IMG/VR virus record: IMGVR_UViG_3300045988_070268
DNA: 34,641 nucleotides
Direction: 5' to 3' (one strand)
Source: a virus
Below, piece after piece: positions 11,424 to 23,982 of this stretch. Numbering within the stretch: position 1 is the first letter of the stretch; each line of letters starts with the position of its first letter. A program made the position numbers and the translations under genes. A model generated the notes under the pieces. It saw only the letters and a program-made list of their open reading frames with translations, was not told the DNA's origin and did not search any database.

Positions 11424-11433
11424 CTAATCCCCC

Positions 11434-11610
11434 CTACTCTTGGGGATTCGCGTCCCCAGACTTCTTGGCGCTCCTGCCGCGCTTGGGCTTCACCTCTTCG
11501 ATGTAGCCCGCCTTCAGCAGGTCGGCCACGATTGCGGCGTCCTCAATCTCACGCGTCTCGCCCTCGTACATCGAGATTGCGCCGCTGAAAGACTTCAGAG
11601 CCTTATGCAT
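11434..11610 (-). CDS. Small Lys-rich protein of 58 aa (MHKALKSFSGAISMYEGETREIEDAAIVADLLKAGYIEEVKPKRGRSAKKSGDANPQE)
   Basis: Not in the ORF track. Its ATG overlaps the capsid stop (ATGCATAA). It has high GC3 and ends 8 nt before the connector RBS. Confidence 0.35.
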   Translation of the reverse strand: MHKALKSFSGAISMYEGETREIEDAAIVADLLKAGYIEEVKPKRGRSAKKSGDANPQE

Positions 11611-12784
11611 TTGCCATCACCAACTTGGCGAGCTTCTGGTCGTTCTGAACCTTGGAGTCGAACTCGAACCACGAGACGACGCCGGTCGCGTGCTCGTCGG
11701 CGTACCTCTCGCGCAGAACCTGCGTGGTGATGTTCTCGGAGAACTTCGTGGCGAGTCCGGTCATGTCGCCGTAGTAGATGACGGCCTTCTCGGCGGCGAT
11801 GTTGGGCATGTTGTCGGACACGTAGACGGGCTTGCCGAGCAGCGTGGTGCCGAACGGCGAGGAAATATCGTCGTTTAGCAGGTAATGGCCGTCGGTGCCC
11901 TTCAGCAGTCGGAGCGCGGTGCGGGTCGCGGGGGACATAATCCAGATGGCGTTGTTCTGGAAGGTATCCTTGATGGAATCCTTCAGCTTCACTACCTCTT
12001 CAGAGGTGATTGCCGTTCCCGCTGCGGTGGTCACGGAGTTGGTGAGCTTGGAAAGGCCCTCGACCTTGCTCTCGGTGCCGATAAGAAGCTCGCGCTCGAT
12101 GAAGCGTGCGATGTCCTCGCCCATCTGGTTGACGACGAACGACACGATGTCGAACTGCGAGTTGTTAATCAGGGAGTTGGAAATCTTGCTCAGTGCGCCA
12201 GCGAGGAAACCGTCAAGCTCGATGTTCTTGAACTTGCCGTTGCTGGAAGTCAGCGGTTTGAATTCCTCGGCATACGCAACGGTGATGCCGCCGTCCTTGG
12301 TGTCGTAGTACGGAATCTGGAGCTTGCCCTTGACGTTGTACTTCTGCGAGCGCTGGAGCACAGGGGATACGTCGTAGACCTTCTTGATAATCTGCTGCGC
12401 GATGGTGGTCGGGATGACCGAACCGTTGTCGGTCTTGGTCAGCTCACCGGCGCGCTCGTGGATGACGCGGCCACGGATGAAGTTCTCGAAGGCACGGCGC
12501 TCCTGCTGCTCCTGAGTCGGCTTCGGCTCGCCGCCAGCGGGCGCAGGCTCCTGCTTCGGCTGCTTGTCCTTGGAATCGTCAAGCTCGTCGCTAATCTTGA
12601 GCGCCTCCTTGATTCGCTTCACATCGTCGCGAATCTCTGCCAGCTCCTCGGCTTCGTCCTCGGTCAGCTCGCGCTTGTTGACCTCGGCATCCGCGAGAAT
12701 CTTCTCGGCCTTGGTAATCTTGTCGTTCTTCAGCTCCACGAGGTTCTTGTAGCTCAGGGAGCGGGTGTGGTAAATCTTCGGCAT
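11603..12784 (-). CDS. Major capsid protein (HK97 fold) with an N-terminal delta/scaffold-like domain
   Basis: 393 aa. The N-terminus is coiled-coil and acidic (..AEELAEIRDDVKRIKEAL..), followed by capsid-like sequence. RBS GAAGGAGGG; it directly follows the protease gene. Confidence 0.85.
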   Translation of the reverse strand: MPKIYHTRSLSYKNLVELKNDKITKAEKILADAEVNKRELTEDEAEELAEIRDDVKRIKEALKISDELDDSKDKQPKQEPAPAGGEPKPTQEQQERRAFENFIRGRVIHERAGELTKTDNGSVIPTTIAQQIIKKVYDVSPVLQRSQKYNVKGKLQIPYYDTKDGGITVAYAEEFKPLTSSNGKFKNIELDGFLAGALSKISNSLINNSQFDIVSFVVNQMGEDIARFIERELLIGTESKVEGLSKLTNSVTTAAGTAITSEEVVKLKDSIKDTFQNNAIWIMSPATRTALRLLKGTDGHYLLNDDISSPFGTTLLGKPVYVSDNMPNIAAEKAVIYYGDMTGLATKFSENITTQVLRERYADEHATGVVSWFEFDSKVQNDQKLAKLVMANA

Positions 12785-12785
12785 G

Positions 12786-13418
12786 TTAGCCCTCCTTCAT
12801 CTCGGCAATCATTGCCTTGTATTTGCTGTAGTCGATTTCCTGCTGCGTTTCTTTCTTGGGTTCGCTCGGCTCTTCTCGCGTTTCAGGCTGCGGTGCTTCG
12901 CCGTCATCGTCGAAAGAATCGGAAACGAAAAGTTTCTCTTCCGAATCCTCGCTGCGTGCCATAATCAGCGTCCCATCGTACGCGGGCACCTTGGAACGGT
13001 CGAGGATTGAAACCTCTTCGAGGTCGAGGTCGTTCACCTCGCGCGTCAACATGCCGTTCTCGACCCCGTTCTTCACGTCGCGGTCGAAGAACCCGAACGA
13101 CCATCCGACTAGGTCACCGCGCTTCGCCATCTCGATAACGTCCTTGTCGGAGATGGTGCACTTTGCGCGAAGGCCGATGTTGTCCTCGGTCAGTTCGAGG
13201 TTGCCCTTCTTGGTGCTGCCGAGGTCGCGCGTCCAGTCGTGGTTGAGCAGGACGTGAACATCGTCGTTGCGCTTCAGGGCACGCGCGAACGCGCCCTTCT
13301 TGATTCGCTCGATAAACTTGCCCATGCGCGAAAGCAGCGGTTTGCTGTTCCGCTCCACGGCGTTCACGTAGCCTTCGATTTCAACCGCATCCTCGCGAAT
13401 GTTAATCTGCATTTGCAT
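12786..13418 (-). CDS. Prohead protease (HK97 family)
   Basis: MQMQINIREDAVEIEGYVN...HVLLNHDW...GS...GWSFGF; ATG at 13416..13418 with RBS AAGGGGG. The track's 36-codon extension overlaps the portal gene. Confidence 0.8.
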   Translation of the reverse strand: MQMQINIREDAVEIEGYVNAVERNSKPLLSRMGKFIERIKKGAFARALKRNDDVHVLLNHDWTRDLGSTKKGNLELTEDNIGLRAKCTISDKDVIEMAKRGDLVGWSFGFFDRDVKNGVENGMLTREVNDLDLEEVSILDRSKVPAYDGTLIMARSEDSEEKLFVSDSFDDDGEAPQPETREEPSEPKKETQQEIDYSKYKAMIAEMKEG

Positions 13419-14628
13419 CACCCCCTTGCGCCTGAAGTGCGCCGTCAGAATCCGAAATGCCCTTGGTCGAGTCCGTGTTGGGTGTGTAGACCTCGCCAGT
13501 AGACGTATCGAACAGAACGGAGCCAAGTCCGAGGTCGATGATGTCCAACCCCTGCACCTCGTTCATGTTCTCGTTTCGGCGCATCTCGTTAATCGTCATT
13601 ATGCCACATTCTTTTGCAAGCTGGTACGTCTCGTATCGCTCCTTCAGACTGGCCTTGATGATTTCGCGGCTGTCGAAAGCGAAGAAGTAATTGCGCTTCT
13701 CCTTTTCCAGCAGCAGGTCGCGGTTAAGCGCCGTCTCGAACGCCCGCACAATCGGGTAGATTGCGAACCTGTACGTCTCCTCGAAGTTCTCCTTGATGTG
13801 GAAGATGCCGTTAATCTCGTCCGCCATCGTCCGCTTGTTCTCGTCAAGCTGCATCTCGGTTGAAGTGCTCGACGCTTCTTGGAACTCAAGGCCGTTGTTG
13901 AGCACGACAACGTTTTCCTCCGTGTTGCCGTAAAGGTTCGACCATGCGCTCTTGAGCGCATCGATTTCCTCCTGCCCGAGCTTGCGTTGGCTCTTCAGGA
14001 AACCTCTCTTGTTGCCGCCCGCCTTCACAAGCCCCAACTGGTACATGAGCGTTTGATAGGCAGTCTCCAGAGCCTTCGCGACCTCGACGGTAAGGCCAAC
14101 GCCCGAAGCGCCATCCTTGGTGTTGCGGAGAATCTTGATGAACTCGAACGGCTTGTACGTGTTGGCACCGACGATGATGTCATATGACTTGTGAATCGGG
14201 TCGCTGTTGACGTTGACGCCCACGGAATCGCACGCAACGTAGAACAGGCCCGTCACGTCGTTTCGGCTGCGCTCGATGTAGCAGTACCCGCCCTTGCCCA
14301 TCAGATAATCCTCGACCATCGCCTTCTTGAGTTGGAAGCCGTCTAACGTGTCTCCCGTGTCCACGTTGAGCATCTTCGTGCGCGGGTCGCCCTCCACTTC
14401 CTCGACAACGCCCTTCTCGGTGCGGTACAGGCGCACGGGCATGCACGCGACCGCGCTCGTGATGAAGTCAACCGCGCCAGACACGGCTGGGAGCATCATG
14501 GCCTTGTCGCGGTCGATTGGCTCGTTTGCAAGCAGCGCCCTGAGCAGCACGTCGTTTACCGTGCCGTCATCGCCGATGATGTTCTCGGCGGAACGCTTGC
14601 GCTCGCGCATGTTTTTAATCCATCCCAT
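13402..14628 (-). CDS. Portal protein (HK97 family)
   Basis: MGWIKNMRERKRSAENIIGDDG... ATG at 14626..14628 has RBS AAGGGGTGA and lies 12 nt after the terL stop. The track's upstream 114 codons are Arg-rich read-through overlapping terL. Confidence 0.85.
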   Translation of the reverse strand: MGWIKNMRERKRSAENIIGDDGTVNDVLLRALLANEPIDRDKAMMLPAVSGAVDFITSAVACMPVRLYRTEKGVVEEVEGDPRTKMLNVDTGDTLDGFQLKKAMVEDYLMGKGGYCYIERSRNDVTGLFYVACDSVGVNVNSDPIHKSYDIIVGANTYKPFEFIKILRNTKDGASGVGLTVEVAKALETAYQTLMYQLGLVKAGGNKRGFLKSQRKLGQEEIDALKSAWSNLYGNTEENVVVLNNGLEFQEASSTSTEMQLDENKRTMADEINGIFHIKENFEETYRFAIYPIVRAFETALNRDLLLEKEKRNYFFAFDSREIIKASLKERYETYQLAKECGIMTINEMRRNENMNEVQGLDIIDLGLGSVLFDTSTGEVYTPNTDSTKGISDSDGALQAQGGDANAD

Positions 14629-14639
14629 CGAATCACCCC

Positions 14640-16325
14640 TTAAATTACCTGAACCGTGAAGTCGGGCATTTGCCCGAAAACCACGTCCTGTTGCAGCAAG
14701 TATACGGCGTTGATAAGCGAAACCACCATATCGACCTTGCCATTGCTTTTCTTCTTGTGCACGTACATGTTGCGGTTCGTGTCGTAGCTGCAACGCGCGT
14801 TCTGAAAGTTGATTTCCAGCAGCTTGTTGTCGGTGTACTCGAACTCGCCGCCTAAAATCTTCTCTTTCAGCAGCTTGGTCGGCGGGTGGAGCACGCTCGA
14901 ATGCTGCCGAATCTCCACCGTGTTGTACCCTGCGCCTTCCAACTTCTGCGCGGTGCTGAGCGCGTTCCATCGGTCGTAGCCGATTGCCTGAACCTGCACG
15001 CCGTACTTTTCCTCTATGCCGAGAATGAAGTCCTCGACAACGGAGTAGTCGATAACCCTGTCACCGCACGCGATGCACTTCCCGGCGCGGACGAACTCGT
15101 TGTAGTCGATTTTCTCGTAGGCGTTCTTCTCGGGAATGCGGCCTTCGGGAACGAACGCGAACACATCGGCGAGGATGTTCCCGTCATCATCGGCGGCAAC
15201 CATCGCGACGGCTGTGTTGTCGTTCGTCTCCGACAAGTCCAACCCGAGATAGACCACGCGCCCGCGCCAGTCGATGTTCGCTACCTTGCAGGCCTGCACG
15301 TCCGCAACGTCGATGAACGTCTCGGTGCCCTGTCCTTGGTAGATGATGTTGCAGTGCTTGGTGAGGAAGTTCTCGCGTGCCGATTCGACCGCGATTGCAT
15401 ACGCCCGCTTCTTCAGCAAATCCTGCCAGATTTCGGGAATCTCAATGCTGACGGGATTCGCCTGACGCATGGCCGAATCGTCCGTCATCCAGTCCTTCGT
15501 CTCGTCAGGCTCGTAGAGCAACGCGAACAGCGAATCGTCCTCGGTGATGCCGTCCAGCACCTTCTTGGCGTATGCAACCTCGTCTTCGAAAGGGTTGTCG
15601 ATGGTCGGGTACTTGGTCGAGATGATGAAGCCGAGTTTGTTCAGGATGTTGAGCTGACCCGACTTCATAGCTTCGATGGCGTAGTTGGTCGGCAGCGCCC
15701 CAACCTCGTCCGCGCAGAACGCGCTCGGAAGTCGGCCATCCATCCTCGACGTTGAATAGCTCAGGGGAACGTACGTCGAGCTTTTCGGCTTGAACGTGAT
15801 GCAGTCGCGCAGAATCTTGAAGCGCCTGTTTCCCTTGTACTCGTAGACAAGCGGGGACGAGCGCAGGGTCTGCGAGATTGCTTCCCTAATCTGCCTTGAA
15901 AGCGCCCCGTCTGGTGCCACGGAAAAGAACTCGGCGAATCGCGGCTCGGTCAGCATCAAGATGATGAAAATCGTCGCTACCGTGTACGTCTTGAAGTTCT
16001 TGCGGGCGATTTCCAGAAGGCCGATTTCGTAACGGCGCTTATCGTGGTTGTCGCGGTAGACGGTGCATAGAACGGCGATGTATAGCAACCACTGATAACC
16101 AGTCGTGCACTCGTACAACGTCTGCCCGGCCTTCAGGCCCTTCGGCATGACGAGCAGCTTCAGGATTGATTCGACCTGTTGAATCTTCGCATCGCTGACG
16201 AAGTGCTTCTCGCTCTTGCCCTCGCAGACGTCCATCCATAGGCGCATCTGCTTCTTGACGTACGCGGGCGTGGTGTCCGCGTCGATTGCGGCCTTGCAGT
16301 ATTCGTAACCCCTATTTCTCGCCAT
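14640..16325 (-). CDS. terL: Terminase large subunit
   Basis: About 560 aa, with ATPase and nuclease regions typical of HK97-like TerL. ATG at 16323..16325 overlaps the terS end. Confidence 0.9.
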   Translation of the reverse strand: MARNRGYEYCKAAIDADTTPAYVKKQMRLWMDVCEGKSEKHFVSDAKIQQVESILKLLVMPKGLKAGQTLYECTTGYQWLLYIAVLCTVYRDNHDKRRYEIGLLEIARKNFKTYTVATIFIILMLTEPRFAEFFSVAPDGALSRQIREAISQTLRSSPLVYEYKGNRRFKILRDCITFKPKSSTYVPLSYSTSRMDGRLPSAFCADEVGALPTNYAIEAMKSGQLNILNKLGFIISTKYPTIDNPFEDEVAYAKKVLDGITEDDSLFALLYEPDETKDWMTDDSAMRQANPVSIEIPEIWQDLLKKRAYAIAVESARENFLTKHCNIIYQGQGTETFIDVADVQACKVANIDWRGRVVYLGLDLSETNDNTAVAMVAADDDGNILADVFAFVPEGRIPEKNAYEKIDYNEFVRAGKCIACGDRVIDYSVVEDFILGIEEKYGVQVQAIGYDRWNALSTAQKLEGAGYNTVEIRQHSSVLHPPTKLLKEKILGGEFEYTDNKLLEINFQNARCSYDTNRNMYVHKKKSNGKVDMVVSLINAVYLLQQDVVFGQMPDFTVQVI

Positions 16326-16683
16326 CGCTGTCACCGTTGACTATCGCCATGAGCGGGTCGCAATCCGAATCGCGTCCCTCGTCCTCCTTGGCGAATCCCT
16401 TGATAATCTTCATCAGTGTCGTGACTGTGCGGTTTGCGCTGTCCGTGGTCTTGTTGTACTCCGTGACCGCTGGGTTGACGTAGATATTCGCGCGGCCCTT
16501 CACATATTCCTTCGTAACGAGCGTGCCCGTCTCGCGGATTGCCGCTTCCAGCTCCGTGAGGTTGTTGAGCTGAACCTGATACCGCTTGAACGTGGTCATA
16601 AAGAAGAAGTTGGTCTGTACGCCCGTCTCTTCGGCGATTTTCAGGATTTCCTGCGCCTGCTCGTCGAGTGTTTTCTTTGCCAT
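16312..16683 (-). CDS. terS: Terminase small subunit (P27 family)
   Basis: 123 aa; ..GRANIYVNPAVTEYNKTTDSANRTVTTLMKIIKGF.. matches the P27-family C-terminal motif. RBS GGAGGT. The adjacent HNH gene suggests cos-type packaging. Confidence 0.65.
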   Translation of the reverse strand: MAKKTLDEQAQEILKIAEETGVQTNFFFMTTFKRYQVQLNNLTELEAAIRETGTLVTKEYVKGRANIYVNPAVTEYNKTTDSANRTVTTLMKIIKGFAKEDEGRDSDCDPLMAIVNGDSDGEK

Positions 16684-16689
16684 GTTCCG

Positions 16690-17538
16690 CTACCTCCGTT
16701 TTCTGTATCTATCGCTGATAATCTTCGGCGTGCACGCGTTCCAGTTTACACGATGGTGCATTCGCCTGTGGTGCGCCCCCATCTCGGCCGCCTTCACGGC
16801 CTGCGGCGAGAATATGACGCTATAGAACGACTTGACGTACGTCCCGCTATCAAGATACATCTCCGACATGCCACCGGCTTGCGACTGCGTGCCTGCCTGG
16901 CAAATCTGCGTGTTGGTCACCGTGAAGAACAGCCCGCCCTTGTTCCCAAGGCTCGTATACGTGTTGACGTCCTCGTTGACCCTACCGACGAACCGGAACC
17001 GCCTTGGGGTCTTGCAGAAAAAGGTGTTCATTGCCTTGCGAGAAAGACCCTTATGGAAGAAATTGTTCGCACCGCCGATGAGGTCACCGCCCTGCGCAAG
17101 CGCGATGGAAAGCGCACCGCTCGAATCAAGGAACTCGATACAATCCTCGAACAGCCTATCGAGGTCTTTGCAATCGGTGTGCTTGAGCTGCGCACCGGAA
17201 ATGTACCTGAACATGAACGCGGTGTAGTCATCGTCGAGTTCGAGGAAGTATTCTAAACCCAACTTCTCGGCGAGTTCGAAGCAGACGTTGCGAGCATAGA
17301 CGATTGCTCGCCTGTCCTCCGATAGGTCTGCTGTGTCGAACTTCTTGGACTCTGCAAGTTTGTCGAACTGAATCACCTTGTCGCCGTACAGCTCTCGATA
17401 CCTGTCTGCCGTGTCATCCTCGTTGTCGATGACGATATAGAGCTTGCCGGTGTAGTTCCCCATATTCAGAGCACGAGGCGTCTTGATGTTGTCAGGCCTG
17501 CCATGCGTGAGGATGGATACTGCAAAGTCACTTCGCAT
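16690..17538 (-). CDS. GT-A fold glycosyltransferase-like protein (282 aa)
   Basis: The N-terminal strand is AVSILTHGRPD (compare VSIIIPTYNRP). It carries the motifs LYIVIDNEDDTAD and FLELDDDY (DXD), and VGRVNEDVNTYTSLG (compare GWGGEDVDLCLRL, the xED motif). RBS GGGAGGTGG. All of this was recognised by eye, without a database search. Confidence 0.5.
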   Translation of the reverse strand: MRSDFAVSILTHGRPDNIKTPRALNMGNYTGKLYIVIDNEDDTADRYRELYGDKVIQFDKLAESKKFDTADLSEDRRAIVYARNVCFELAEKLGLEYFLELDDDYTAFMFRYISGAQLKHTDCKDLDRLFEDCIEFLDSSGALSIALAQGGDLIGGANNFFHKGLSRKAMNTFFCKTPRRFRFVGRVNEDVNTYTSLGNKGGLFFTVTNTQICQAGTQSQAGGMSEMYLDSGTYVKSFYSVIFSPQAVKAAEMGAHHRRMHHRVNWNACTPKIISDRYRKRR

Positions 17539-17800
17539 TCTTGCGCCACCTCCCGCTGAGAATCTTCGGATACATGAGGGCCTTGCTCTTTCGCAGGCTG
17601 GTGCCGTCTCTGCTGACGATTATTCTCATGCTGCTCGGGTCGATTATCACGGAATAGAAGTCGCGCACGTACTGCTTGTTGTCATCGTACAAGCCGTGCA
17701 GCCCTCCTTCGTTCGTTCCGCGCTGCGGGGTGCTCTTCGTTATCGCGTAAGCTTCGAGCATGACCTGCCCAGCGTCCTTGCCGAGCAGAAGCGCGTTCAT
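17528..17800 (-). CDS. Truncated paralogue of the glycosyltransferase C-terminal domain; possible pseudogene remnant, or a 90-aa product from an internal ATG
   Basis: ..FVGILNEDMNALLLGKDAG...FYSVIIDP aligns with ..FVGRVNEDVNTYTSLGNKGG...FYSVIFSP of the 282-aa protein. The in-frame similarity continues about 45 codons upstream of the ATG (..SRKEIFKHGQDKSHLRRNINQAFVVRTDDKLK..), with no start codon there. Confidence 0.4.
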   Translation of the reverse strand: MNALLLGKDAGQVMLEAYAITKSTPQRGTNEGGLHGLYDDNKQYVRDFYSVIIDPSSMRIIVSRDGTSLRKSKALMYPKILSGRWRKNAK

Positions 17801-17878
17801 GTCCTCGTTGAGGATTCCGACGAACTTGAGCTTGTCATCCGTGCGAACGACGAACGCCTGATTGATGTTCCGGCGTAG

Positions 17879-18127
17879 GTGACTTTTGTCTTGTCCATGC
17901 TTGAAAATCTCCTTTCTCGATACATTCGAAGGCTCTATGGGGAAACTCTCGAAAGAATCCCCGATAATCGCCCTTATTGAATGATAATCGCAGTTTTAAG
18001 CCCAAAAACCGCCGTTTTCCAGAAAGGCCCAGCAGATAGAAAATTTAGTGTCCGGAGCGAGGCGGTCAGATGGCCCGCCCGTTCGGTCGCTCCGACCCCA
18101 TGGCAGGGGGGATTGTCTTCCGACAGG
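17879..18127. other. 250-bp non-coding region between the HNH endonuclease and the glycosyltransferase/terS genes; candidate cos / packaging-initiation region
   Basis: No credible ORF lies here. HNH plus P27 terS phages use cos ends located between HNH and terS. Nothing specific to a cos site was recognised in the sequence. Confidence 0.25.
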
Positions 18128-18520
18128 TTACCCTTCCGCATCTCGGCACGCAGCTCGCCTCTTCGCGGCCAGCCTGCGTAGGTATGCTTTGCCGAGCTCG
18201 CCATCGTCCGCCATCCTGTGGTGCATCCTGCATAGGCACACGAGGTTATCGTCCTCTATCAACCCGTCCGGGTCTTCCCTCAGCTTCTCGATATGGTGGA
18301 CCTCCAGCCCCTGCGCGGTGACCTTCCCTTGGTCCCTGCAGACCTCGCACATCCAGTGCGCGTCTTCCCTGACCTGTAGGCTCTTCCTCTTCCACCTTGA
18401 TGTGAAGCGCAGCCTGTCGGCTCCCGTCCTCTCGTAACGGTAGGTGGGCTTCCTCATCGGGCATGGCTCGTCGTATGCGTGCATCTTCCCGCACCTGCTG
18501 CATGCCCTGTATGCTCCCAT
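18128..18520 (-). CDS. HNH endonuclease (terminase-associated)
   Basis: ..EVHHIEKL...NLVCLCRMHH.. carries the HNH motif and zinc ligands (CxxC...CxxC). 130 aa, immediately upstream of the packaging genes. Confidence 0.8.
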   Translation of the reverse strand: MGAYRACSRCGKMHAYDEPCPMRKPTYRYERTGADRLRFTSRWKRKSLQVREDAHWMCEVCRDQGKVTAQGLEVHHIEKLREDPDGLIEDDNLVCLCRMHHRMADDGELGKAYLRRLAAKRRAACRDAEG

Positions 18521-18537
18521 GGAATCACCGCCTGTTC

Positions 18538-18571
18538 GAAAAAGTGGCCCCCGCCCCGAATGGCGAGGGCC
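18538..18571 (-). terminator. Rho-independent terminator-like hairpin downstream of the endolysin
   Basis: ggcccccgc-cccgaatg-gcgagggcc is followed on the minus strand by ACUUUUUCG. Confidence 0.5.
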
Positions 18572-18580
18572 TGCCGACGG

Positions 18581-19642
18581 TTATCCAACCGTGAGAACCT
18601 GTCCGGGATAGATGCGGTTGGGGTTGGCGAGTCCGTTCAGCTTTGCGAGGTGCTGCCACGAGGTACCGTATGCGGCGGCGATGCCGGAAAGGGTATCGCC
18701 GCCCTTGACCGTGTAGGTCTTGCGGGCCGGAGCCGATGCACCCAGCTTCGCGTTCACGGTTCGCTGGATAGCATCCGGGTCATACCCAGCCTGGGCAAGC
18801 CTGTTGCGCCTGTCGTTTCCGTTGCCCCATGCGCCACCGATGACCTCGTTTGCAATCTGCTCGTTGCTCTTCTTCGAAGGGTGGAGCTTCGCGTTGACGA
18901 TTGACTGGATGGCATCGTAATTATATCCGGCACTTGCAAGACGGTTGCGCCTATCGTCTCCGTTGCCCCACTGGCCTGCAATTACCTCGTCGGCGATTTG
19001 CTCGTTGCTCTTTCTAGCCGGTGCAGGTGCCGGAGCGCTCGACGCGCCCACGTACTTCGCCCACGCGGCGGCGTCCATGTATGCCTTGTCGAGGTCTAGG
19101 TTGCCATTGTATCCCGCAAGCCTTCCGGTTGAGCTGTACTGCCTGATGGCACAGTTATACGCGCCCTCGTTCCAAGGGCTGTCTTGGTATCCGGTGGGCT
19201 CTTTGTTCGCATACTGTGCGACCCATGTACCGCAATCGAGAGCCTGCGCGACGTCCCACGGGAATGAGCCTGCGGGCGCGTAGATGAGCGGCTTGACTCC
19301 CGTGCGGTCGATGACTCGCTGGACGAGCTGCTTGAGGTAGCCGGTGTTGCCCCACGCGGCGTTCTCCGCGCTCTCCCAGTCGATGCACGGGATGCCCTTG
19401 CCGAAGTATCCTGCGCAATGGTCGATGAAGAAGTCGGCTTCTGCCTGTGCTCCGCTGCCGTCCACGTAATGGTAGAAGCCGAACGGCTTGCCGAGGGCAA
19501 TGGCCTGCTGAACCTGCGCGTCGCAGGCGTCAGAGACGAAATTCACGCCCTGCGTCGCCTTTACGATTACGAAATCACATGGAACCTTCGAGAGGTCGAT
19601 TCCCGCCTGCCATCCGCTGATGTCGATTCCCTGCATTGCCAT
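18581..19642 (-). CDS. Endolysin: GH25 muramidase, two CW_7 repeats and a C-terminal LysM
   Basis: GIDISGWQ marks the GH25 N-terminus. There are two copies of SNEQIA(D/N)EVI(A/G)G(Q/A)WGNG(D/N)DRRNRLA..GY..DAIQ..VN (CW_7). The C-terminal [29 protein letters not shown]...GQVLTV is a LysM domain. Confidence 0.9.
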
Positions 19643-19644
19643 GT

Positions 19645-19878
19645 CTACTTGCTCCTTTCAGATACCTGCTTCGAAGTTGCCGCGCTTACTCCAATGAGCG
19701 CACCGATGAGAACCCCGGTCGCGTTGAGCGTGAGCACGATTGCATCGACGTTCGGGATGCCCCACGCCGGGAACACCGCGCCCACGAAAGTCGCGACTGC
19801 CGGGCATGCGACAAGCCCGACCCATTTTAGCACGTGATACAGTTTGTCGTTTATGATGTACTCTTTCGTTCTTTCCAC
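19645..19878 (-). CDS. Holin
   Basis: 77 aa with two hydrophobic segments (..[17 protein letters not shown].. and ..[19 protein letters not shown]..) and a charged C-terminus. It lies immediately upstream of the endolysin. The start is GTG. Confidence 0.6.
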
Positions 19879-19882
19879 CTTC

Positions 19883-20275
19883 CTAATCGTCCTTTGTCGG
19901 CAACGCCATCATCTCGTCGTGGAGGTTCGTGGCGATGCCGTTGCCGCCTAGCCTGTGGTAGCTTTGATAGGTGCGCTCCATGACTTCCTTGTCCACGGTC
20001 GAAGCGTGGCCGTCACGCACGGCATGATGATGCGTTCGCATAAGCTCGCTTCTCAGCAGCGCCCGCAAGGCCGATTTGAAAAGCTCGTTTTCCTCTTCGG
20101 CCTTCTCCTTCTCGACGCGCCTGTTCGACAGCGTTACGCCGAGGAGAGCGACGACTGCCGCAGCCGAGTAGATTGCGAGCTGCGAATCGAGTCCCGGATT
20201 CGACACGAGCGTAGCGGTCGCTGCCAGCGCAGACGGGATGCACACCCACAAAAGTTTTTCCCAGAATCCCTGCAA
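19883..20275 (-). CDS. Membrane protein with one TM helix plus a coiled-coil/His-rich tail (holin/antiholin-like accessory lysis protein)
   Basis: High GC3 in this frame, with a hydrophobic N-terminus (LLWVCIPSALAATATLVSNPGL..AAAVVALLGVTL). It begins at a TTG/GTG start with a weak RBS, so the exact start is uncertain. Confidence 0.4.
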   Translation of the reverse strand: MQGFWEKLLWVCIPSALAATATLVSNPGLDSQLAIYSAAAVVALLGVTLSNRRVEKEKAEEENELFKSALRALLRSELMRTHHHAVRDGHASTVDKEVMERTYQSYHRLGGNGIATNLHDEMMALPTKDD

Positions 20276-20618
20276 CGCCGCTCTTTTCCGATTGGTTTAT
20301 TACACTCCTTTGATTATACGACACGCGGGACGGGAATTGCGGGAACGATGAAAGGCCCCCATTTCTGGGGGCCTTTGATTGGAACTCGTCTTGAAGACCG
20401 ATGATTACTCTCACACTTCCATATTGCGCATTCTCAATCTTCCATTTAGAAACCTCTTCGTCTCCATGTGCCGCGATTGCCGCTTCTACGGGACGTATAC
20501 GGAAACGCCAGCCATTGGATGCAATCTCGCCATCGCGCGTGAAGATGTAGACTGAAGCTGCGTACGACTCTGCTTTCACCTTGTTGAGGATGCTCTCTAC
20601 TGTATTGGCGTTCGTCAT
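20013..20618 (-). CDS. ORF of uncertain extent. The N-terminal portion of about 85 codons (20378..20618, MTNANTVESILNKVKAESYAASVYIFTRDGEIASNGWRF...) looks coding; the distal part is probably spurious read-through
   Basis: ATG at 20616..20618 has RBS GGAAAGAGAAAGGAA. The region has lower GC (about 48%) and lower GC3 than its neighbours. The frame has no stop until 20013, passes through a hairpin, and then overlaps the 19883..20275 gene in another frame with Arg/Ala-rich junk. Confidence 0.25.
   Translation of the reverse strand: MTNANTVESILNKVKAESYAASVYIFTRDGEIASNGWRFRIRPVEAAIAAHGDEEVSKWKIENAQYGSVRVIIGLQDEFQSKAPRNGGLSSFPQFPSRVSYNQRSVINQSEKSGVAGILGKTFVGVHPVCAGSDRYARVESGTRFAARNLLGCGSRRSPRRNAVEQARREGEGRRGKRAFQIGLAGAAEKRAYANASSCRA
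20351..20376. terminator. Perfect 10-bp hairpin aaaggccccc-atttct-gggggccttt upstream of the lysis cassette
   Basis: Read directly. It has short U tracts on both strands, so it could be a bidirectional terminator or an attenuator. Confidence 0.35.
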
Positions 20619-20705
20619 TTCGGGATTCCTTTCTCTTTCCCTTCGTTGATTATAGTATATACCTATACACGAGCATAGCAGGCGTGAATTGGAAATTTTT
20701 TTCAA

Positions 20706-20740
20706 AATAAAAAACGGGAACCCTCTCGGATTCCCGCATC
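20706..20740 (-). terminator. Rho-independent terminator ending the early operon
   Basis: On the minus strand, cgggaauccgagaggguucccg is followed by UUUUUUAUUUU, immediately after the stop of the 20744..20917 gene. Confidence 0.7.
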
Positions 20741-20743
20741 TGG

Positions 20744-20917
20744 TTATTTTTTCAAGTCCTCGCGAATCAGCCTCTTGATGTATCCCTGCTTGCTGGGCAC
20801 GCTGTCGAGCTTTTCCAGAACGTCCCCGTCGGTGCGGCGGTTCAGCTTCAGGTGAACCTGCCGCGTGTTCTCGGCGTCGTACTTCTTCTGGGCCTTGATT
20901 TGCGCTTCAGTTGCCAT
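20744..20917 (-). CDS. Small ribbon-helix-helix-like protein (57 aa)
   Basis: MATEAQIKAQKKYDAENTRQVHLKLNRRTDGDVLEKLDSV... shows a beta-strand then helix pattern. RBS GGAGGTGA sits 5 nt before the ATG at 20915..20917. Confidence 0.4.
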   Translation of the reverse strand: MATEAQIKAQKKYDAENTRQVHLKLNRRTDGDVLEKLDSVPSKQGYIKRLIREDLKK

Positions 20918-20922
20918 GCGCG

Positions 20923-21138
20923 TCACCTCCGGTTGTCGATTAGGTCTGCCAATTTCCGCCACATTCCCGGCCCCGAGCTGTCTAGGTTGCAGAGCGCGTC
21001 ATCGTTACCGAACAGCGCCCTGCTCGCCCTGAGGCATCCGAGGCAGTTGCCCACGGTCTTGTACGCGCTGCCCTCGTCGTCGCACCTGTGGGTGCGCAGG
21101 AACTCGACGGCCTCGCGCCTCTCCTTATCGCTTGGCAT
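20923..21138 (-). CDS. Hypothetical 71-aa Cys-rich protein (MPSDKERREAVEFLRTH...)
   Basis: Shares the N-terminal D(E/K)(K/R)RREV/A..L(R/K) motif with the genes at 21125..21487 and 22706..22915. Confidence 0.35.
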   Translation of the reverse strand: MPSDKERREAVEFLRTHRCDDEGSAYKTVGNCLGCLRASRALFGNDDALCNLDSSGPGMWRKLADLIDNRR

Positions 21139-21487
21139 CTGTAATCACCGCCCCGCATTTCGGGCAATAGTTCCAGCGCATGTCGCCAATCGAATATCCG
21201 CAGACCTCGCGGCACGGTGTCTCCCTGCCGTACTTGGTCTTGAACTTGCCGTGGCGCGTAGTGGTCGGGCGGTCGATAGGGTCGGCGAGTGTCTCGCAGA
21301 TATGGATGTAATTGCCTTGGAACGCATGTCCGCATCGCTCGACCGAAGCGGCGATGTTGCGGTAGGCCGTGTTGCCACATTCGCTGCCGTCAATATCGTC
21401 CTCGTACCACTTCGACCGCTCGCTCATGTATCCGATTTGCCTGCGCAGTTCAGCCGCTACCTCGCGCCGCTTCTCATCGGTAATCAT
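21125..21487 (-). CDS. Hypothetical 120-aa protein with a C-terminal zinc ribbon (CREVCG...CPKCG)
   Basis: MITDEKRREVAAELRRQ... carries the shared N-motif. Confidence 0.45.
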   Translation of the reverse strand: MITDEKRREVAAELRRQIGYMSERSKWYEDDIDGSECGNTAYRNIAASVERCGHAFQGNYIHICETLADPIDRPTTTRHGKFKTKYGRETPCREVCGYSIGDMRWNYCPKCGAVITDAKR

Positions 21488-21699
21488 TCGTCCTCACAAC
21501 TCCGCTCGTTGAATCTGCCGTTCCACTCGTCGATGGCGTAATCACTTTTGCTCGAGCGTGGGCCGCTCGCCATGCAATATCCGCACTCGACGAAGTACAG
21601 CTTCGTGCCTCCAATCAGCTCTTGCGTCATCATGACATGGTCTGAGGCCCCACAGAACGGGCAAGGTTTAAGCCCTTCAACCGAATCTGGCTCATTCAT
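21484..21699 (-). CDS. Lar-family restriction-alleviation-like zinc-finger protein (copy 2)
   Basis: MNEPDSVEGLKPCPFCGASDHVMMT...VECGYCMASGP... matches the Lar-type pattern of two CxxC pairs. RBS GGGAGGGGA. Confidence 0.5.
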   Translation of the reverse strand: MNEPDSVEGLKPCPFCGASDHVMMTQELIGGTKLYFVECGYCMASGPRSSKSDYAIDEWNGRFNERSCEDE

Positions 21700-21949
21700 G
21701 GTCGAACATCCCCTCCCAGTCGTCGCATGTCTCGTTCCATTGCCGTATGGCATCTAGAGTCAGCTGCAGGTCGCTCGGGCGACACGCCTTGGCGAGCGGC
21801 CCGGTGAGTACATGGTCGCGTTGTGCGTAGATGTTGCACTCCTTGCAGACGACTATCGCTGACAGGGTACTGTTCAGGTAGTCCTCGTTTATCCCGATGT
21901 GCAGGTGCTCGGTCGAATGGCACTTCGGGCACGGCTTCATAGTCGTCAT
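21692..21949 (-). CDS. Lar-family restriction-alleviation-like zinc-finger protein (copy 1)
   Basis: MTTMKPCPKCHSTEHLHIG...VVCKECNIYAQ... is a tandem paralogue of the downstream gene. Confidence 0.5.
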   Translation of the reverse strand: MTTMKPCPKCHSTEHLHIGINEDYLNSTLSAIVVCKECNIYAQRDHVLTGPLAKACRPSDLQLTLDAIRQWNETCDDWEGMFDHE

Positions 21950-22356
21950 TCGTCCTCACCCCTCAGTTTGCGGATACGGGATGCGATGTCTTTAACCATC
22001 TTTATGTCGCAATTGCCGTATGGGAACTGAGAACACCCTGAGCAATCTTTTCCGTCCGCTCCGAAATATTTGCAGCAGACGATACGCACGTCATCGCCAT
22101 TGATGATTTTGTCCAAGTCCTCAAGCAGTTTCTCCCAGCTGTCGGGCTGGATGAGGCGTACGTCACAGGCGTGCAAAGTCATGTGTTCGCCGGGCGTGCG
22201 CTCGATATACACGAACCAAGCATCGCGGGCGTCACTGGTGTGGTACATGTACTCGAAGCGCAAGGCTCGAACCTTAGTTCCGTCCGCGATGAACAGCTCC
22301 GAAGTATCAAGCGGAATCTCTCGACCCTCCGCATCCTTGGGTAGTTCGATATTCAT
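21946..22356 (-). CDS. Hypothetical 136-aa protein with a C-terminal Cys cluster (CCKYFGADGKDCSGCS)
   Basis: ORF with stop/start overlap (ATGA-type) to its neighbours; high GC3. Confidence 0.5.
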   Translation of the reverse strand: MNIELPKDAEGREIPLDTSELFIADGTKVRALRFEYMYHTSDARDAWFVYIERTPGEHMTLHACDVRLIQPDSWEKLLEDLDKIINGDDVRIVCCKYFGADGKDCSGCSQFPYGNCDIKMVKDIASRIRKLRGEDE

Positions 22357-22709
22357 CTGACTTCCTTTCTGCCGTTAAGAACCTTGGTGCGCAGTTCCGC
22401 GCAATCGGCGCTCGGATAGGTCGGCGCTACCTCTTTGCGGATGAGCGCAGCACATGCCGCTACGCCATATGCCATATCCGATGACGTTGGTTTCTCATCA
22501 CGCATAAAGCACCGATGAAGACTGTCCACGTTGGCCAGCGCCCTCTCCCACGCCTTGCAGCGTTCGCGGTACATCTTCGTGCGGTCGCGCGCCTTGGACA
22601 GTTTCGATTCAAGCCCCCGGCAATGGCGCTCTAGGTTCGCGTACCGACGCTTTAGGTCGGCTAGCTCATCGGCGTAGCTCAGGGCCAGCGTTTGATAGTC
22701 CTGCATCAC
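22353..22709 (-). CDS. Hypothetical 118-aa coiled-coil protein
   Basis: ORF in the early operon with overlapping stop and start. Confidence 0.45.
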   Translation of the reverse strand: MMQDYQTLALSYADELADLKRRYANLERHCRGLESKLSKARDRTKMYRERCKAWERALANVDSLHRCFMRDEKPTSSDMAYGVAACAALIRKEVAPTYPSADCAELRTKVLNGRKEVR

Positions 22710-22915
22710 TCATCCACCTCGCATCGCTCTTCATCGGTAATGTCGATAGGGTCTGCAATAGCATTGAAGGTCTCTTTCGGGTCTGCGAAATCGACCTCAC
22801 CCGTCACGGTATCTTGCAACCGCTGCCACCATTCGGATAATGAGCCGTCGCAATACGCAGCTTGCTTTCTCAGCTCTTGCGCCACCTCGCGGCGCTCGTC
22901 GCTAGTAAATGTCAT
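22706..22915 (-). CDS. Hypothetical 69-aa acidic protein (MTFTSDERREVAQELRKQAAY...)
   Basis: Shared N-motif as for 20923..21138 and 21125..21487. Confidence 0.4.
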   Translation of the reverse strand: MTFTSDERREVAQELRKQAAYCDGSLSEWWQRLQDTVTGEVDFADPKETFNAIADPIDITDEERCEVDE

Positions 22916-23411
22916 CGGAATCAGCCCAAAACATACAGTCGTAGTCGCACTCCCATGTCTCTCCGTCGCGGCTCATGGTCGCCCCGTACCTCGGAGTGTC
23001 GCCGTTATCGTCGCCCCGGAAGTGGAAGTGCCATCCCGGAAAGTCGAACTCCTCGTCGTACTCGTCGGCGGCGTACCTCGTGTCGCCGTACTCCTCGTAA
23101 TCGTCCCACCCGAACTTGCGGGAAAGGTCATCGAACGTGTATATGGTCGGCTTGTCCTTGCCGTCCTCCCACTCGTAAATCTCTGGCCAATACTGCTTGT
23201 AGCACCCGACGCGGACGATGCCGTCTCCCATGACTCCATGGTGCGAGAACTCGAACCACTCGAATCCGTCATGGTGCTTCATGATGTTCGCGTACACGCG
23301 GAGTCCAGAAGGTAGGGAAGCCTCGTCGGTGTCGTATACGCCTACGTCCTCCTTATCGGTTCTGCGCTCGCCGTTGAGGTACGCGAACGCGCCGTAGTCG
23401 ATGTATGCCAT
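22902..23411 (-). CDS. Hypothetical 169-aa highly acidic, aromatic-rich protein
   Basis: MAYIDYGAFAYLNGERRTD...; ATG at 23409..23411 with RBS GGAGG. The track's N-terminal extension was rejected. Confidence 0.5.
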   Translation of the reverse strand: MAYIDYGAFAYLNGERRTDKEDVGVYDTDEASLPSGLRVYANIMKHHDGFEWFEFSHHGVMGDGIVRVGCYKQYWPEIYEWEDGKDKPTIYTFDDLSRKFGWDDYEEYGDTRYAADEYDEEFDFPGWHFHFRGDDNGDTPRYGATMSRDGETWECDYDCMFWADSDDIY

Positions 23412-23451
23412 AGCTAGACCTCCGTCTCCGCCAGAATGCCGTCGTTCCTCT

Positions 23452-23616: not shown

Positions 23617-23645
23617 TTGAACTCCTTTCCCCTCCTGACTTGCAA

Positions 23646-23951: not shown

Positions 23952-23982
23952 CGTTGTGTCTCCCTTTCTCTCTATGTGTTGT

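What the first reader, a model, noticed from the sequence alone, without database searches (positions are those of the whole stretch)
16690..17800. GT-A glycosyltransferase moron plus a decayed tandem paralogue between HNH/cos and terS
A 282-aa protein with GT-A hallmarks (N-terminal strand, DXD as ELDDD, xED as VGRVNEDV) sits between the HNH endonuclease and the small terminase. That slot is usually occupied by DNA-modification or moron genes. Immediately upstream lies a second copy that retains only the C-terminal acceptor-side domain. Its in-frame similarity runs about 45 codons past the annotated ATG with no start codon, so it looks like a pseudogenised duplicate, or a domain-only product from the internal ATG. 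Possible roles include glycosylation of virion proteins (the adjacent tail module carries S/T-rich collagen-like fibres), modification of DNA, or modification of host surface polymers for superinfection exclusion. None of these is established for this phage group.
Basis: partly seen in the sequence, partly recalled or inferred. Interest (0 to 1): 0.7.

Follow-up and report, generated by a model that had tools for sequence, protein, structure and literature searches.

The report
Orphaned phage sugar-transferase gene, partners deleted
The 282-residue gene is a real glycosyltransferase of the phage family known for putting sugars on DNA, but here it is the last intact piece of a three-gene module whose ParB-like partner and first transferase were removed by one deletion, so it is probably a decaying relic and not a new host-altering gene.

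Summary
**Observation confirmed.**
- ORF 16690..17538(-) is a GT-A glycosyltransferase of Pfam family TAGT (PF20691, E=2e-35).
- R14, D102-D104 and N188-E189-D190 are invariant in homologues from Clostridia, Lactobacillus, E. coli and a halovirus.
- The sequence upstream (17528..17874) is the last ~115 codons of a second, divergent copy.

- In relatives the slot holds HNH, a ParB-like gene, GT1, GT2 and terS. One related circular contig has all of them intact.
- All 77 evaluable viral loci carry a ParB-like gene within 1 kb of the transferase.
- In this window a single deletion (junction 17875|17874) joined ParB codon 8 to about codon 166 of GT1.
- The whole 34.6-kb genome has no TET/JBP, no thymidylate-synthase-like hydroxymethylase and no DNA methyltransferase.

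**Current state.** The surviving gene differs from a ParB-less twin genome by three changes. All three are non-synonymous and radical (here F8S and L21P, both at conserved core sites). This fits relaxed selection.

**Most likely ancestral role.** Late, post-replicative glycosylation of phage DNA on an unknown acceptor. This is inferred, not shown.

**Verdict.** A new, degraded member of a known kind, of moderate interest.

The parts
16690..17538 (-). Intact 282-aa TAGT-family GT-A glycosyltransferase (GT2 of the ancestral module). Carries the window-specific substitutions F8S and L21P.
17528..17874 (-). Remnant of the upstream paralogue GT1 (TAGT'), from about codon 166 to the stop. It keeps the NED motif. 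Its last 11 nt overlap the start of the intact gene and carry that gene's GGAGG ribosome-binding site.
   Evidence: tblastn 32% identity over 122 aa, E=3e-12. Family HMM positions 163-282, E=9e-18. Aligns to the intact TAGT' of IMGVR_UViG_3300045988_063176. Sequence.
17528..17800 (-). 90-aa ORF opening at the first ATG inside the remnant. Either a possible domain-only product or merely the open part of a pseudogene.
   Evidence: ORF list. dN/dS 0.11 against L002. The Met is Leu in the intact copy. GAGG lies only 2 nt before the ATG.
17875..17898 (-). First 8 codons (MDKTKVTY) of the deleted ParB-like partner gene. The deletion junction lies at 17875|17874.
   Evidence: blastn to L001 and L002 stops at 17875, which is ParB codon 8 in both. 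Relatives read M[EN]KTKVTYMDVDSL.
17909..17915 (-). AAAGGAG ribosome-binding site of the lost ParB-like gene, 10 nt before its ATG.
   Evidence: Sequence read directly.
17797..17898 (-). 33-aa chimeric ORF running from the ParB start out of frame into GT1 sequence. Its TGA (17799..17797) overlaps the ATG (17800..17798) of the 90-aa ORF as ATGA.
   Evidence: Translations and sequence.
18128..18520 (-). HNH endonuclease at the start of the packaging operon.
   Evidence: Pfam HNH E=9e-5. PHROG 144 E=9e-18.
16312..16683 (-). Small terminase subunit immediately downstream.
   Evidence: PHROG 13845 E=2e-47. Terminase_4 E=0.0015. Followed by TerL 14640..16334.
18546..18571 (-). Terminator-like hairpin after the endolysin gene. 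It separates the lysis genes from the HNH/packaging unit.
   Evidence: 10-bp stem with 9 GC pairs and a T-rich tail.

Best explanation
**What it is.** The 282-aa gene is an intact TAGT-family (PF20691) GT-A glycosyltransferase. It is the only surviving complete gene of a late three-gene module: a ParB-like protein, glycosyltransferase 1 and glycosyltransferase 2. In relatives this module lies between HNH and terS, and its genes overlap stop-to-start.

**What happened here.** One deletion fused codon 8 of the ParB-like gene to about codon 166 of glycosyltransferase 1.

**What the intact module most likely does (inferred).** It transfers sugars from nucleotide-sugars onto phage DNA after replication and just before packaging. 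The ParB-like protein would act as the DNA-loading or activating partner, and two transferases in series would build a larger glycan. The likely purpose is protection from host nucleases. The acceptor cannot be phage-made 5-hydroxymethyl-cytosine or -uracil, because no enzyme for either is encoded. The acceptor is therefore unknown.

**Current state in this phage.** The module is disabled. The remaining transferase appears to be drifting, with F8S and L21P at conserved core sites.
For: **Shown: family and fold.**
- Family membership and GT-A fold.
- Catalytic R14, DDD102-104 and NED188-190 are invariant across bacterial and archaeal virus homologues.

**Shown: the module in relatives.**
- A ParB_N gene sits directly upstream with an 8-11 nt overlap in L001, L002, phi jlb1, HHTV-2 and E. 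coli phage.
- Among 80 viral loci, 71 of 76 with enough upstream sequence have the ParB-like gene adjacent and the other 5 have it within 1 kb.
- The module ParB-GT1-GT2-terS is intact in IMGVR_UViG_3300045988_063176 and in L019, L035, L043/L045 and L077.

**Shown: the deletion and what is missing.**
- The deletion junction lies at 17875|17874.
- No ParB-like sequence exists anywhere else in the window.
- No Tet_JBP, thymidylate-synthase-like or DNA methyltransferase hit in any ORF scanned.

**Shown: relaxed selection.**
- All 3 differences from the ParB-less twin L008 are non-synonymous and radical at conserved sites. terS has none.
- With the long-term omega of 0.055 the chance of 3 out of 3 is about 0.004. 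Under neutrality it is about 0.46.

**Inferred: DNA as the target.**
- Characterised TAGT-type enzymes act on DNA (PMC13216743, PMC13390438, bioRxiv 10.1101/2023.12.21.572611).
- ParB-like proteins activate phage DNA thymine dioxygenases (PMC13229309).
- The pair is conserved at 38-50% identity in viruses of Gram-positive bacteria, Gram-negative bacteria and archaea. This calls for a universal acceptor.
- Fusions of the transferase to a second transferase, to SAM-methyltransferase, to sulfotransferase and to P-loop domains resemble glycan-tailoring pathways.
Against: - No experiment links this subfamily to DNA.
- No source of a hydroxymethyl acceptor exists in this genome, and none is annotated in the complete genomes of phi jlb1 or in the 50 kb of HHTV-2 examined.
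- No recurrent source was seen among 150 representative neighbour ORFs. That census lists only the top 25 families, so single hits could be hidden.
- GREB1, an animal protein with a TAGT-like domain, glycosylates a protein (PMC7968844).
- The relaxed-selection argument rests on three substitutions in metagenome assemblies.
- The gene is still a complete ORF with every catalytic residue in place.
- A ParB-independent activity cannot be excluded.
Confidence: 0.55

Rival explanations
1. The transferase, and the module it came from, glycosylates a protein and not DNA. Candidates are the ParB-like partner itself, a packaging protein, a virion protein such as the collagen-like tail fibre, or a host factor.
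For: - GREB1, which carries a TAGT-like domain, O-GlcNAcylates ER-alpha (PMC7968844). NCBI names some E. coli homologues 'GREB1-related protein'.
- The genome has no hydroxymethyl-pyrimidine source.
- The conserved partner is the C-terminal domain of the ParB-like protein. That domain occurs alone in 10 loci, so it could be a substrate or adaptor.
- A collagen-repeat tail protein is present at 3393..4262.
Against: - Virion proteins differ completely among the myo-, sipho- and archaeal viruses that share the pair at 38-50% identity.
- The gene lies at the head of the packaging operon beside a DNA-clamp-type partner. That is the same slot where the literature reports ParB-methyltransferase fusions in phages (PMC12704722).
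- All characterised phage members of the family act on DNA.
Confidence: 0.15
2. The gene is a lysogenic-conversion or superinfection-exclusion transferase that decorates a host surface polymer such as teichoic acid or O-antigen, as prophage TarP or the Gtr systems do.
For: - The gene lies in a slot where accessory genes accumulate.
Against: - The TarP match is no better than matches to dozens of unrelated GT-A enzymes.
- No Pfam hit to a membrane, flippase or other envelope-modification family was found among the ORFs scanned. Transmembrane segments were not predicted.
- The gene is co-oriented with the late packaging genes and separated from the lysis genes by a terminator-like hairpin.
- The same pair occurs in viruses of E. 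coli, Lactobacillus, Nocardia, Vibrio and Haloarcula, whose envelopes share no common acceptor.
Confidence: 0.05
3. The 90-aa ORF (17528..17800) is not junk. The C-terminal domain of the lost paralogue is made as a small protein. It could be expressed by termination-reinitiation at the ATGA that ends the 33-aa ORF driven by the old ParB ribosome-binding site, and it would act alone or with the intact transferase.
For: - dN/dS is 0.11 over the 90 codons between the window and L002: 19.2 synonymous against 9.8 non-synonymous changes, binomial p=3e-7. dS is 0.44, like terS.
- The two lineages carry independent upstream lesions, yet both keep these 90 codons open and both keep the Met.
- The ATGA overlap follows a strong AAAGGAG site.
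- PHROG 31222 is a family of about 90-aa phage proteins that matches this domain.
Against: - The Met is Leu in the intact paralogue.
- GAGG lies only 2 nt from the ATG.
- In L002 the upstream frames do not end at the ATGA, so the coupling is not conserved.
- The low dN/dS can simply date from before two recent inactivations.
- The 3' end must be conserved anyway, because it carries the ribosome-binding site and start of the next gene.
- L001 has lost the remnant entirely.
Confidence: 0.2
4. The surviving transferase is still fully functional without the ParB-like partner and GT1, and still modifies this phage's DNA or another target.
For: - The ORF is intact and all catalytic residues are present.
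- The same deletion occurs in at least two independent assemblies, so the variant is viable and circulating.
- Some phage thymine dioxygenases work without ParB (PMC13229309).
- In L001 the orthologue works without GT1.
Against: - Every one of 77 evaluable viral loci keeps a ParB-like partner within 1 kb.
- All three differences between the two ParB-less genomes are radical non-synonymous changes at conserved positions.
Confidence: 0.25

Closest known systems
T2/T6 beta-glucosyl-HMC-alpha-glucosyltransferase, the founding phage member of Pfam PF20691 (TAGT)
   Same: - Same Pfam family and GT-A fold.
- A T4-like homologue (Klebsiella phage PKO111) is a structural match at E=2e-8, TM 0.63.
- PHROG 842 carries its name.
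   Different: - No sequence-level tblastn hit to T-even phages at E<=1e-3.
- The T6 enzyme extends glucose on glucosyl-5hmC, which is made by a dCMP hydroxymethylase and an alpha-GT (PMC13216743). This phage has neither, so the PHROG name should not be transferred.
- The T-even gene has no ParB-like partner (my recollection of T-even genomes; not checked here).
Metavirome GT-A DNA glycosyltransferases linked to C5-methyltransferase plus 5mYOX/TET (PMC8256090; bioRxiv 10.1101/2023.12.21.572611)
   Same: - GT-A fold with the R...DDD...ED motif.
- Structural kinship to TarP.
- Sequential pairs of transferases occur.
- ParB-like neighbours are noted in passing.
   Different: - Those enzymes act on 5hmC made by neighbouring enzymes. 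Here no methyltransferase or dioxygenase exists in the genome.
- That preprint set aside about 65% of transferase contigs without such neighbours as 'less likely' to be DNA-modifying. This subfamily belongs to that unexplained majority.
ParB-dependent phage thymine dioxygenases (5mYOX176/ParB176; PMC13229309)
   Same: - A small ParB-like protein with a nucleotide-binding domain and a C-terminal domain is encoded next to a DNA-modifying enzyme as its specific partner.
[quoted passage not shown] For the partner here, Pfam finds only ParB_N and the rest of the AlphaFold2 model is low-confidence.
   Different: - The enzyme partner here is a glycosyltransferase, not a dioxygenase.
- Whether the ParB-like protein activates it is untested.
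- In this window the partner is deleted.
Kinetoplastid base-J glucosyltransferase (JGT) and animal GREB1
   Same: Both are reported relatives of the TAGT domain (bioRxiv 10.1101/2023.12.21.572611; PMC7968844).
   Different: - JGT needs 5hmU made by JBP.
- GREB1 is a 1949-aa multidomain protein that glycosylates a protein.
- Neither relationship was tested here, because the AlphaFold-database library was unavailable.
E. coli Rac-type prophage ynaK region
   Same: - The same pair (ParB/Srx-domain YnaK plus a TAGT protein) sits between the lysis genes and terS.
- It is complete in 889 of 5426 complete E. coli genomes and about 49% identical to the window protein.
- K-12 carries a truncated relic, as this window does.
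   Different: - Different host and a lambdoid backbone.
- In K-12 the transferase is gone and 86 ParB codons remain. Here ParB is gone and the transferase remains.

Membership tests
TAGT (Pfam PF20691) DNA-base glycosyltransferases | Profile match above the curated gathering score | tested here: met
   122.8 bits against a cut-off of 27.5, E=2.3e-35, covering residues 5-223.
TAGT (Pfam PF20691) DNA-base glycosyltransferases | GT-A (nucleotide-diphospho-sugar transferase) fold | tested here: met
TAGT (Pfam PF20691) DNA-base glycosyltransferases | Active-site motifs R...DDD...ED(Y/F), as described for phage GT-A DNA transferases | tested here: met
   R14, D102-D103-D104 and E189-D190 are invariant across Clostridia, Lactobacillus, E. 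coli and halovirus homologues. The residue after ED is V or T, not Y/F.
TAGT (Pfam PF20691) DNA-base glycosyltransferases | Co-encoded source of the acceptor base: TET/JBP-type dioxygenase with or without a C5-methyltransferase, or a thymidylate-synthase-like hydroxymethylase | tested here: not met
   None found among the ORFs scanned with Pfam or PHROGs across the 34.6-kb genome. None annotated in phi jlb1 or in the 50 kb of HHTV-2 examined. Not recurrent among 150 neighbour ORFs of 80 loci.
TAGT (Pfam PF20691) DNA-base glycosyltransferases | Transfers a sugar to a DNA base | not testable with these tools
   Needs nucleoside LC-MS/MS or an in-vitro assay.
ParB-like + TAGT late cassette (defined here from relatives) | ParB_N/ParB-CTD gene immediately upstream, with stop overlapping the transferase start | tested here: not met
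   In the window only 8 codons of the gene remain (17875..17898), and no ParB-like sequence exists elsewhere. The feature is met in 71 of 76 viral loci, and the partner is within 1 kb in the rest.
ParB-like + TAGT late cassette (defined here from relatives) | Located at the head of the packaging module, just upstream of terS/terL | tested here: met
   terS starts 7 nt after the transferase stop. The order is the same in L001, L002, L007, L008, phi jlb1 and E. coli phage.
T-even beta-glucosyl-HMC-alpha-glucosyltransferase (the name PHROG 842 gives) | Acts on glucosyl-5hmC made by a dCMP hydroxymethylase plus an alpha- or beta-GT | tested here: not met
   No hydroxymethylase or GT-B transferase in the window. 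No tblastn hit to T-even phages.
Prophage surface-glycan transferases (TarP / Gtr type) | Specific kinship to an envelope-polymer transferase, and a distribution tied to one envelope type | tested here: not met

The most novel reading that the evidence does not exclude
The ParB-like + TAGT cassette, of which this window holds a wreck, installs a sugar on DNA without any 5-hydroxymethyl-pyrimidine precursor. That would mean a new acceptor chemistry, for example direct glycosylation of a canonical base, carried out with a ParB-type partner. The cassette is common in gut Clostridia phages, is present in about 16% of complete E. coli genomes, and reaches archaeal viruses.
Probability: 0.2. Interest if true: 0.85.

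Novelty: new member of a known kind. Interest (0 to 1): 0.45.

Why it matters
Solitary TAGT glycosyltransferases, those with no enzyme nearby to make a hydroxymethyl acceptor, are an acknowledged loose end.
- A 2026 survey found them in 288 of 753 transferase-bearing phages and left their function undefined (PMC13216743).
- An earlier metavirome study set most such contigs aside (bioRxiv 10.1101/2023.12.21.572611).

This window does not solve that question, but following it outward sharpens it.
- This subfamily is tied almost without exception to a ParB-like partner, often to only that protein's C-terminal domain.
- It sits at the head of the packaging operon.
- It occurs in viruses of both bacteria and archaea.
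- It is present intact in 889 complete E. coli genomes, so it can be tested directly in a model organism.

The window adds a natural experiment. Once the partner is deleted, the transferase seems to start decaying. That argues the two proteins work only together.

For annotation, the PHROG-derived name 'beta-glucosyl-HMC-alpha-glucosyltransferase' is misleading for these genes.

Tried and rejected
- **Nearby phage genomes.** blastn of the region against 50,697 phage records found only weak terS-level matches to L. delbrueckii phages. There is no close relative among isolates.
- **Hidden acceptor-making enzymes.** Pfam and PHROG scans of the plausible ORFs of about 85 aa or more in the early region, plus most of the large tail-module ORFs, found no TET/JBP, thymidylate-synthase-like or methyltransferase genes. 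The 277-aa candidate is a DnaD-like replication protein. The 230-aa and 214-aa ORFs have no hits.
- **Intact twin of the remnant by protein search.** This returned only three short fragments. The intact copy was found instead by closing a circular viral contig.
- **AlphaFold-database fold search for JGT and GREB1.** The library was unavailable.
- **Structure of the ParB-like partner.** Only the nucleotide-binding domain was confident (overall pLDDT 62.9). No fold search of the C-terminal domain was attempted.
- **Iyer et al. 2013, the original TAGT paper.** It is not held in the library. What I say of it is from memory.
- **Literature on ynaK, HHTV-2 and accessory-gene screens.** Nothing was found about the cassette.
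- **E. coli K-12 ydaY as a possible transferase remnant.** Rejected: it has no similarity to the family.
- **Promoter scan.** No sigma-70-like site was found in 16200..18700. This is uninformative for a Clostridia phage.
- **Host identification.** Only MAGs of Clostridia, Oscillospiraceae and Lachnospiraceae matched, at 58% identity or less.
Full report
**1. The observation**

All genes in this part of the window lie on the minus strand:
- TerL: 14640..16334
- terS: 16312..16683
- a 282-aa ORF: 16690..17538
- a 90-aa ORF: 17528..17800
- an HNH endonuclease: 18128..18520
- endolysin: 18581..19642
- holin: 19645..19878

The 282-aa protein matches Pfam PF20691 (TET-associated glycosyltransferase, TAGT) at E=2.3e-35, 122.8 bits against a gathering score of 27.5. 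It matches PHROG 842 at E=3e-69.

tblastn of this protein against the upstream DNA finds a second copy covering residues 165-280, with 32% identity and E=3e-12. A family HMM built here matches the same stretch at positions 163-282 with E=9e-18.

One detail needs correcting. True homology extends about 25 codons upstream of the ATG at 17800, to base 17874, not about 45. The frame remains open for 62 codons only because it runs on through unrelated sequence.

**2. Fold and active site**

An AlphaFold2 model built on 45 homologues has mean pLDDT 83.5 and pTM 0.84.
- Foldseek against the PDB returns only GT-A enzymes at the top: ColGalT1, LH3, B4GALNT1, GnT-I and glycogenin, with E from 2e-5 to 1e-3.
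- Against predicted viral structures, the best matches are phage proteins carrying the TAGT domain (TM 0.86-0.88). A T4-like 'beta-glucosyl-HMC-alpha-glucosyltransferase' matches at E=2e-8, TM 0.63.

The following residues are invariant in an alignment spanning Clostridia prophages, Lactobacillus phage phi jlb1, an E. coli phage and halovirus HHTV-2:
- R14
- D102-D103-D104, which follow strand 97-102
- Q149-G-G-D152
- R167-K-A-M-N171
- N188-E189-D190, at the start of helix 189-199
- a C-terminal K236-S-F-Y and R259-x-H-H...W266

The first three motif groups correspond to the R...DDD...ED signature described for phage GT-A DNA transferases (bioRxiv 10.1101/2023.12.21.572611).

**3. What the surroundings should look like**

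The closest relatives come from gut metagenomes.
- In L001, where the transferase is 93% identical, the order is HNH, a 248-aa ParB_N protein, the transferase and terS. The ParB stop overlaps the transferase start by 8 nt.
- In L002 and L007 (69% identical) a 155- or 112-aa ORF lies between ParB and the transferase.

The same ParB-plus-transferase pair, with an 8-11 nt overlap, occurs in several isolated viruses:
- L. gasseri phage phi jlb1
- archaeal virus HHTV-2 (genes 21 and 22)
- E. coli and Salmonella siphoviruses

The transferase alone is also found in Nocardia phage NTR1, L. delbrueckii phages and Vibrio jumbo phages, where I did not inspect the upstream gene.

A scan of viral contigs found 551 relatives. 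I examined the best 80 with local HMMs.
- Of 76 loci with enough upstream sequence, 71 have a ParB-like ORF ending at the transferase start. The other five have one within about 1 kb.
- One further locus was resolved by joining the ends of its circular contig, and it also has the partner.
- In ten loci the partner is only the C-terminal half of the ParB-like protein. The specific partner is therefore that C-terminal domain, which Pfam does not describe.

**4. The tandem copy is ancestral, and an intact one exists**

Five viral loci (L019, L035, L043, L045, L077) carry ParB-GT1-GT2 with both transferases full length.
- The downstream copy is the orthologue of the window protein (50-56% identity).
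- The upstream copy is a divergent paralogue (32-41% identity).

For the window's own lineage, the circular contig IMGVR_UViG_3300045988_063176 carries an intact 279-aa GT1 between ParB and a 71%-identical GT2. Its C-terminal part aligns throughout with the window remnant, so it is the intact counterpart of the lost copy. That intact GT1 keeps R14, DDD and NED. It has TSGA in place of QGGD and lacks the HH...W motif, so it was probably an active enzyme with a different specificity.

L002 and L007 carry a differently broken GT1. The first 73 codons are in another frame and codons of about 98-187, including DDD, are deleted. L001 has lost GT1 cleanly.

**5. The lesion in this window**

- blastn shows that similarity to L001 and L002 runs from the endolysin/HNH region down to base 17875. 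That base is codon 8 of ParB in both relatives.
- Similarity resumes inside GT1 (against L002, from 17813) or at the GT2 start (against L001, from 17538).
- The window still has the ParB ribosome-binding site AAAGGAG (17915..17909), the ATG (17898..17896) and MDKTKVTY. It then continues directly into GT1 at about codon 166 in a different frame.

A single deletion therefore removed nearly all of ParB and the N-terminal, nucleotide-sugar-binding half of GT1. No ParB-like sequence exists anywhere else in the window. The same deletion is present in an independent assembly, L008, which is 99.6% identical here.

**6. Is the 90-aa ORF a gene?**

Points for:
- Over these 90 codons the window and L002 differ by 19.2 synonymous and 9.8 non-synonymous changes. 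This gives dN/dS 0.11 with dS 0.44 and binomial p=3e-7 against neutrality. These values are similar to terS.
- The chimeric 33-aa ORF that starts at the old ParB ATG ends in a TGA overlapping the ATG of the 90-aa ORF (ATGA, 17800..17797). Reinitiation is therefore conceivable.

Points against:
- The Met is Leu in the intact GT1.
- GAGG lies only 2 nt from the ATG.
- The arrangement is not conserved in L002.
- L001 has lost the remnant altogether.
- The remnant's 3' end must be kept in any case, because it carries the GGAGG and start codon of GT2.

The low dN/dS is most simply a legacy of the time when GT1 was intact. I put about 0.2 on a functional product.

**7. Is the surviving transferase still in use?**

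Against L001, the gene shows strong long-term purifying selection, with omega 0.055. Against its ParB-less twin L008 it differs at only three bases.
- All three are non-synonymous and radical.
- In the window, F8S lies in the first core strand. Phe occupies this position in 122 of 129 homologues and Leu in five.
- In the window, L21P lies at the start of helix 1. This position is hydrophobic in the other homologues.
- In L008 the change is L118P.
- terS next door has no differences.

At omega 0.055 the chance that three of three changes are non-synonymous is about 0.004. Under neutrality it is about 0.46. The numbers are small and come from metagenome assemblies. Still, they point to relaxed selection once the partner was lost.

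**8. What the module does**

The window has about the same length as the 34.7-34.8 kb contigs of its near-identical relatives. The gene order closes on itself, from tail genes at one end to a tail-fibre gene and the recombinase at the other. I therefore take it to be a complete, circularly permuted genome.

It has no TET/JBP dioxygenase, no thymidylate-synthase-like hydroxymethylase and no DNA methyltransferase. None is annotated in the complete genome of phi jlb1 or in the 50 kb of HHTV-2 examined. None recurs among 150 representative neighbour ORFs. The known acceptors of this enzyme family, 5hmC, glucosyl-5hmC and 5hmU, are therefore not supplied.

I still favour DNA as the target, by inference:
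- Every characterised phage member of the family acts on DNA (PMC13216743, PMC13390438, PMC8256090).
- ParB-like proteins have now been shown to activate phage DNA thymine dioxygenases (PMC13229309).
- The literature reports that ParB domains in phages are commonly fused to DNA methyltransferase domains (PMC12704722).
- A pair conserved at 38-50% identity in viruses of Gram-positive bacteria, Gram-negative bacteria and archaea needs an acceptor common to all of them.

Fusions found in the wider family would suit a glycan-building and glycan-tailoring pathway:
- transferase-transferase
- transferase with SAM-methyltransferase
- transferase with sulfotransferase
- P-loop NTPase with transferase

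The caveat is GREB1, an animal relative that glycosylates a protein (PMC7968844). Surface-polymer modification and virion glycosylation fit the distribution poorly.

**9. Comparison with what is known**

The gene is a member of the TAGT family by sequence, fold and motifs. It fails the family's contextual criterion of a co-encoded acceptor-making enzyme. It belongs to the 'solitary TAGT' class, which a 2026 survey counted in 288 of 753 phages and left unexplained (PMC13216743). The name 'beta-glucosyl-HMC-alpha-glucosyltransferase' should not be transferred to it.

The near-obligate pairing with a ParB-like partner is mentioned only in passing in the papers I could read (bioRxiv 10.1101/2023.12.21.572611). 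I could not read Iyer et al. 2013, which as I recall proposed ParB involvement in such systems.

**10. Verdict**

The feature is a degraded example of a known kind of phage gene. Its main value is that it exposes a widespread, experimentally accessible cassette whose acceptor is unknown. It also offers a natural partner-loss experiment.
- Interest: 0.45
- Novelty: new member of a known kind

Noticed in passing
L015, L016, L025, L030, L031, L062, L064, L068, L075, L078 (ORF just upstream of the transferase at about 8001 in most): In ten viral loci the partner gene encodes only the C-terminal half (HMM positions about 125-246) of the ParB-like protein, without the ParB_N nucleotide-binding domain. 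This C-terminal domain has no Pfam model and seems to be the part specifically tied to the transferase.
   Followed up: partly
P0247, P0254, P0292; P0257, P0265, P0279; P0281; P0273, P0295 (proteins): Relatives of the transferase occur fused to several other domains: an N-terminal P-loop (GxxxxGKS) domain, SAM-dependent methyltransferase domains, a sulfotransferase domain, or a second TAGT domain. This suggests multi-step glycan tailoring.
   Followed up: partly
L006 (E. coli phage vB_EcoS-683R6, 3217-4933); L103 (E. coli K-12 derivative, 2501-3104): The same ParB-plus-transferase pair lies between the lysis genes/trkG and terS in Rac-type prophages. It is complete in 889 of 5426 complete E. 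coli genomes. K-12 ynaK is just the first 86 codons of the ParB-like gene, and ydaY is unrelated to the transferase.
   Followed up: yes
window 16690..17538 compared with L002 6001..6849: The transferase gene is far more diverged between the window and L002 (72% nt identity, dS 0.96) than the flanking GT1 remnant (89%) and terS (90%). Transferase alleles therefore seem to be swapped by recombination within a conserved backbone.
   Followed up: partly
window 21484..21753(-) and 24341..24706(-): The early region encodes a Lar-type restriction-alleviation protein (E=2.5e-9) and a protein with the DarA C-terminal domain (E=9.5e-9). The phage therefore carries other candidate anti-restriction functions.
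   Followed up: no
window 18581..19878(-): The holin and the GH25/LysM endolysin lie upstream of HNH and the packaging genes instead of after the tail genes. A strong terminator-like hairpin (18571..18546) follows them. The same order is seen in L001, L002 and L008.
   Followed up: no
window 1..34641: The window appears to be a complete, circularly permuted temperate siphovirus genome. Near-identical contigs measure 34.7-34.8 kb. It has a large serine recombinase on the opposite strand (31627..33129) and a tail-fibre gene (33225..34580) next to it.
   Followed up: partly
window 20013..20705(-) and 22902..23546(-): Two ORFs of 230 and 214 aa have no Pfam or PHROG match. The second overlaps a 207-aa ORF on the other strand, so its coding status is uncertain.
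   Followed up: no
Nothing links it to the transferase.
   Followed up: partly
Lactobacillus delbrueckii phages phiLdb, Ld17, LL-Ku, Ld25A (one search hits H23-H44): In several dairy phages the homologous transferase is split into two pieces or reduced to a 45-residue C-terminal trace inside an annotated 'ParB nuclease'. Decay of this cassette is therefore recurrent. This may explain PHROG 31222, a family of about 90-aa C-terminal fragments.
   Followed up: no
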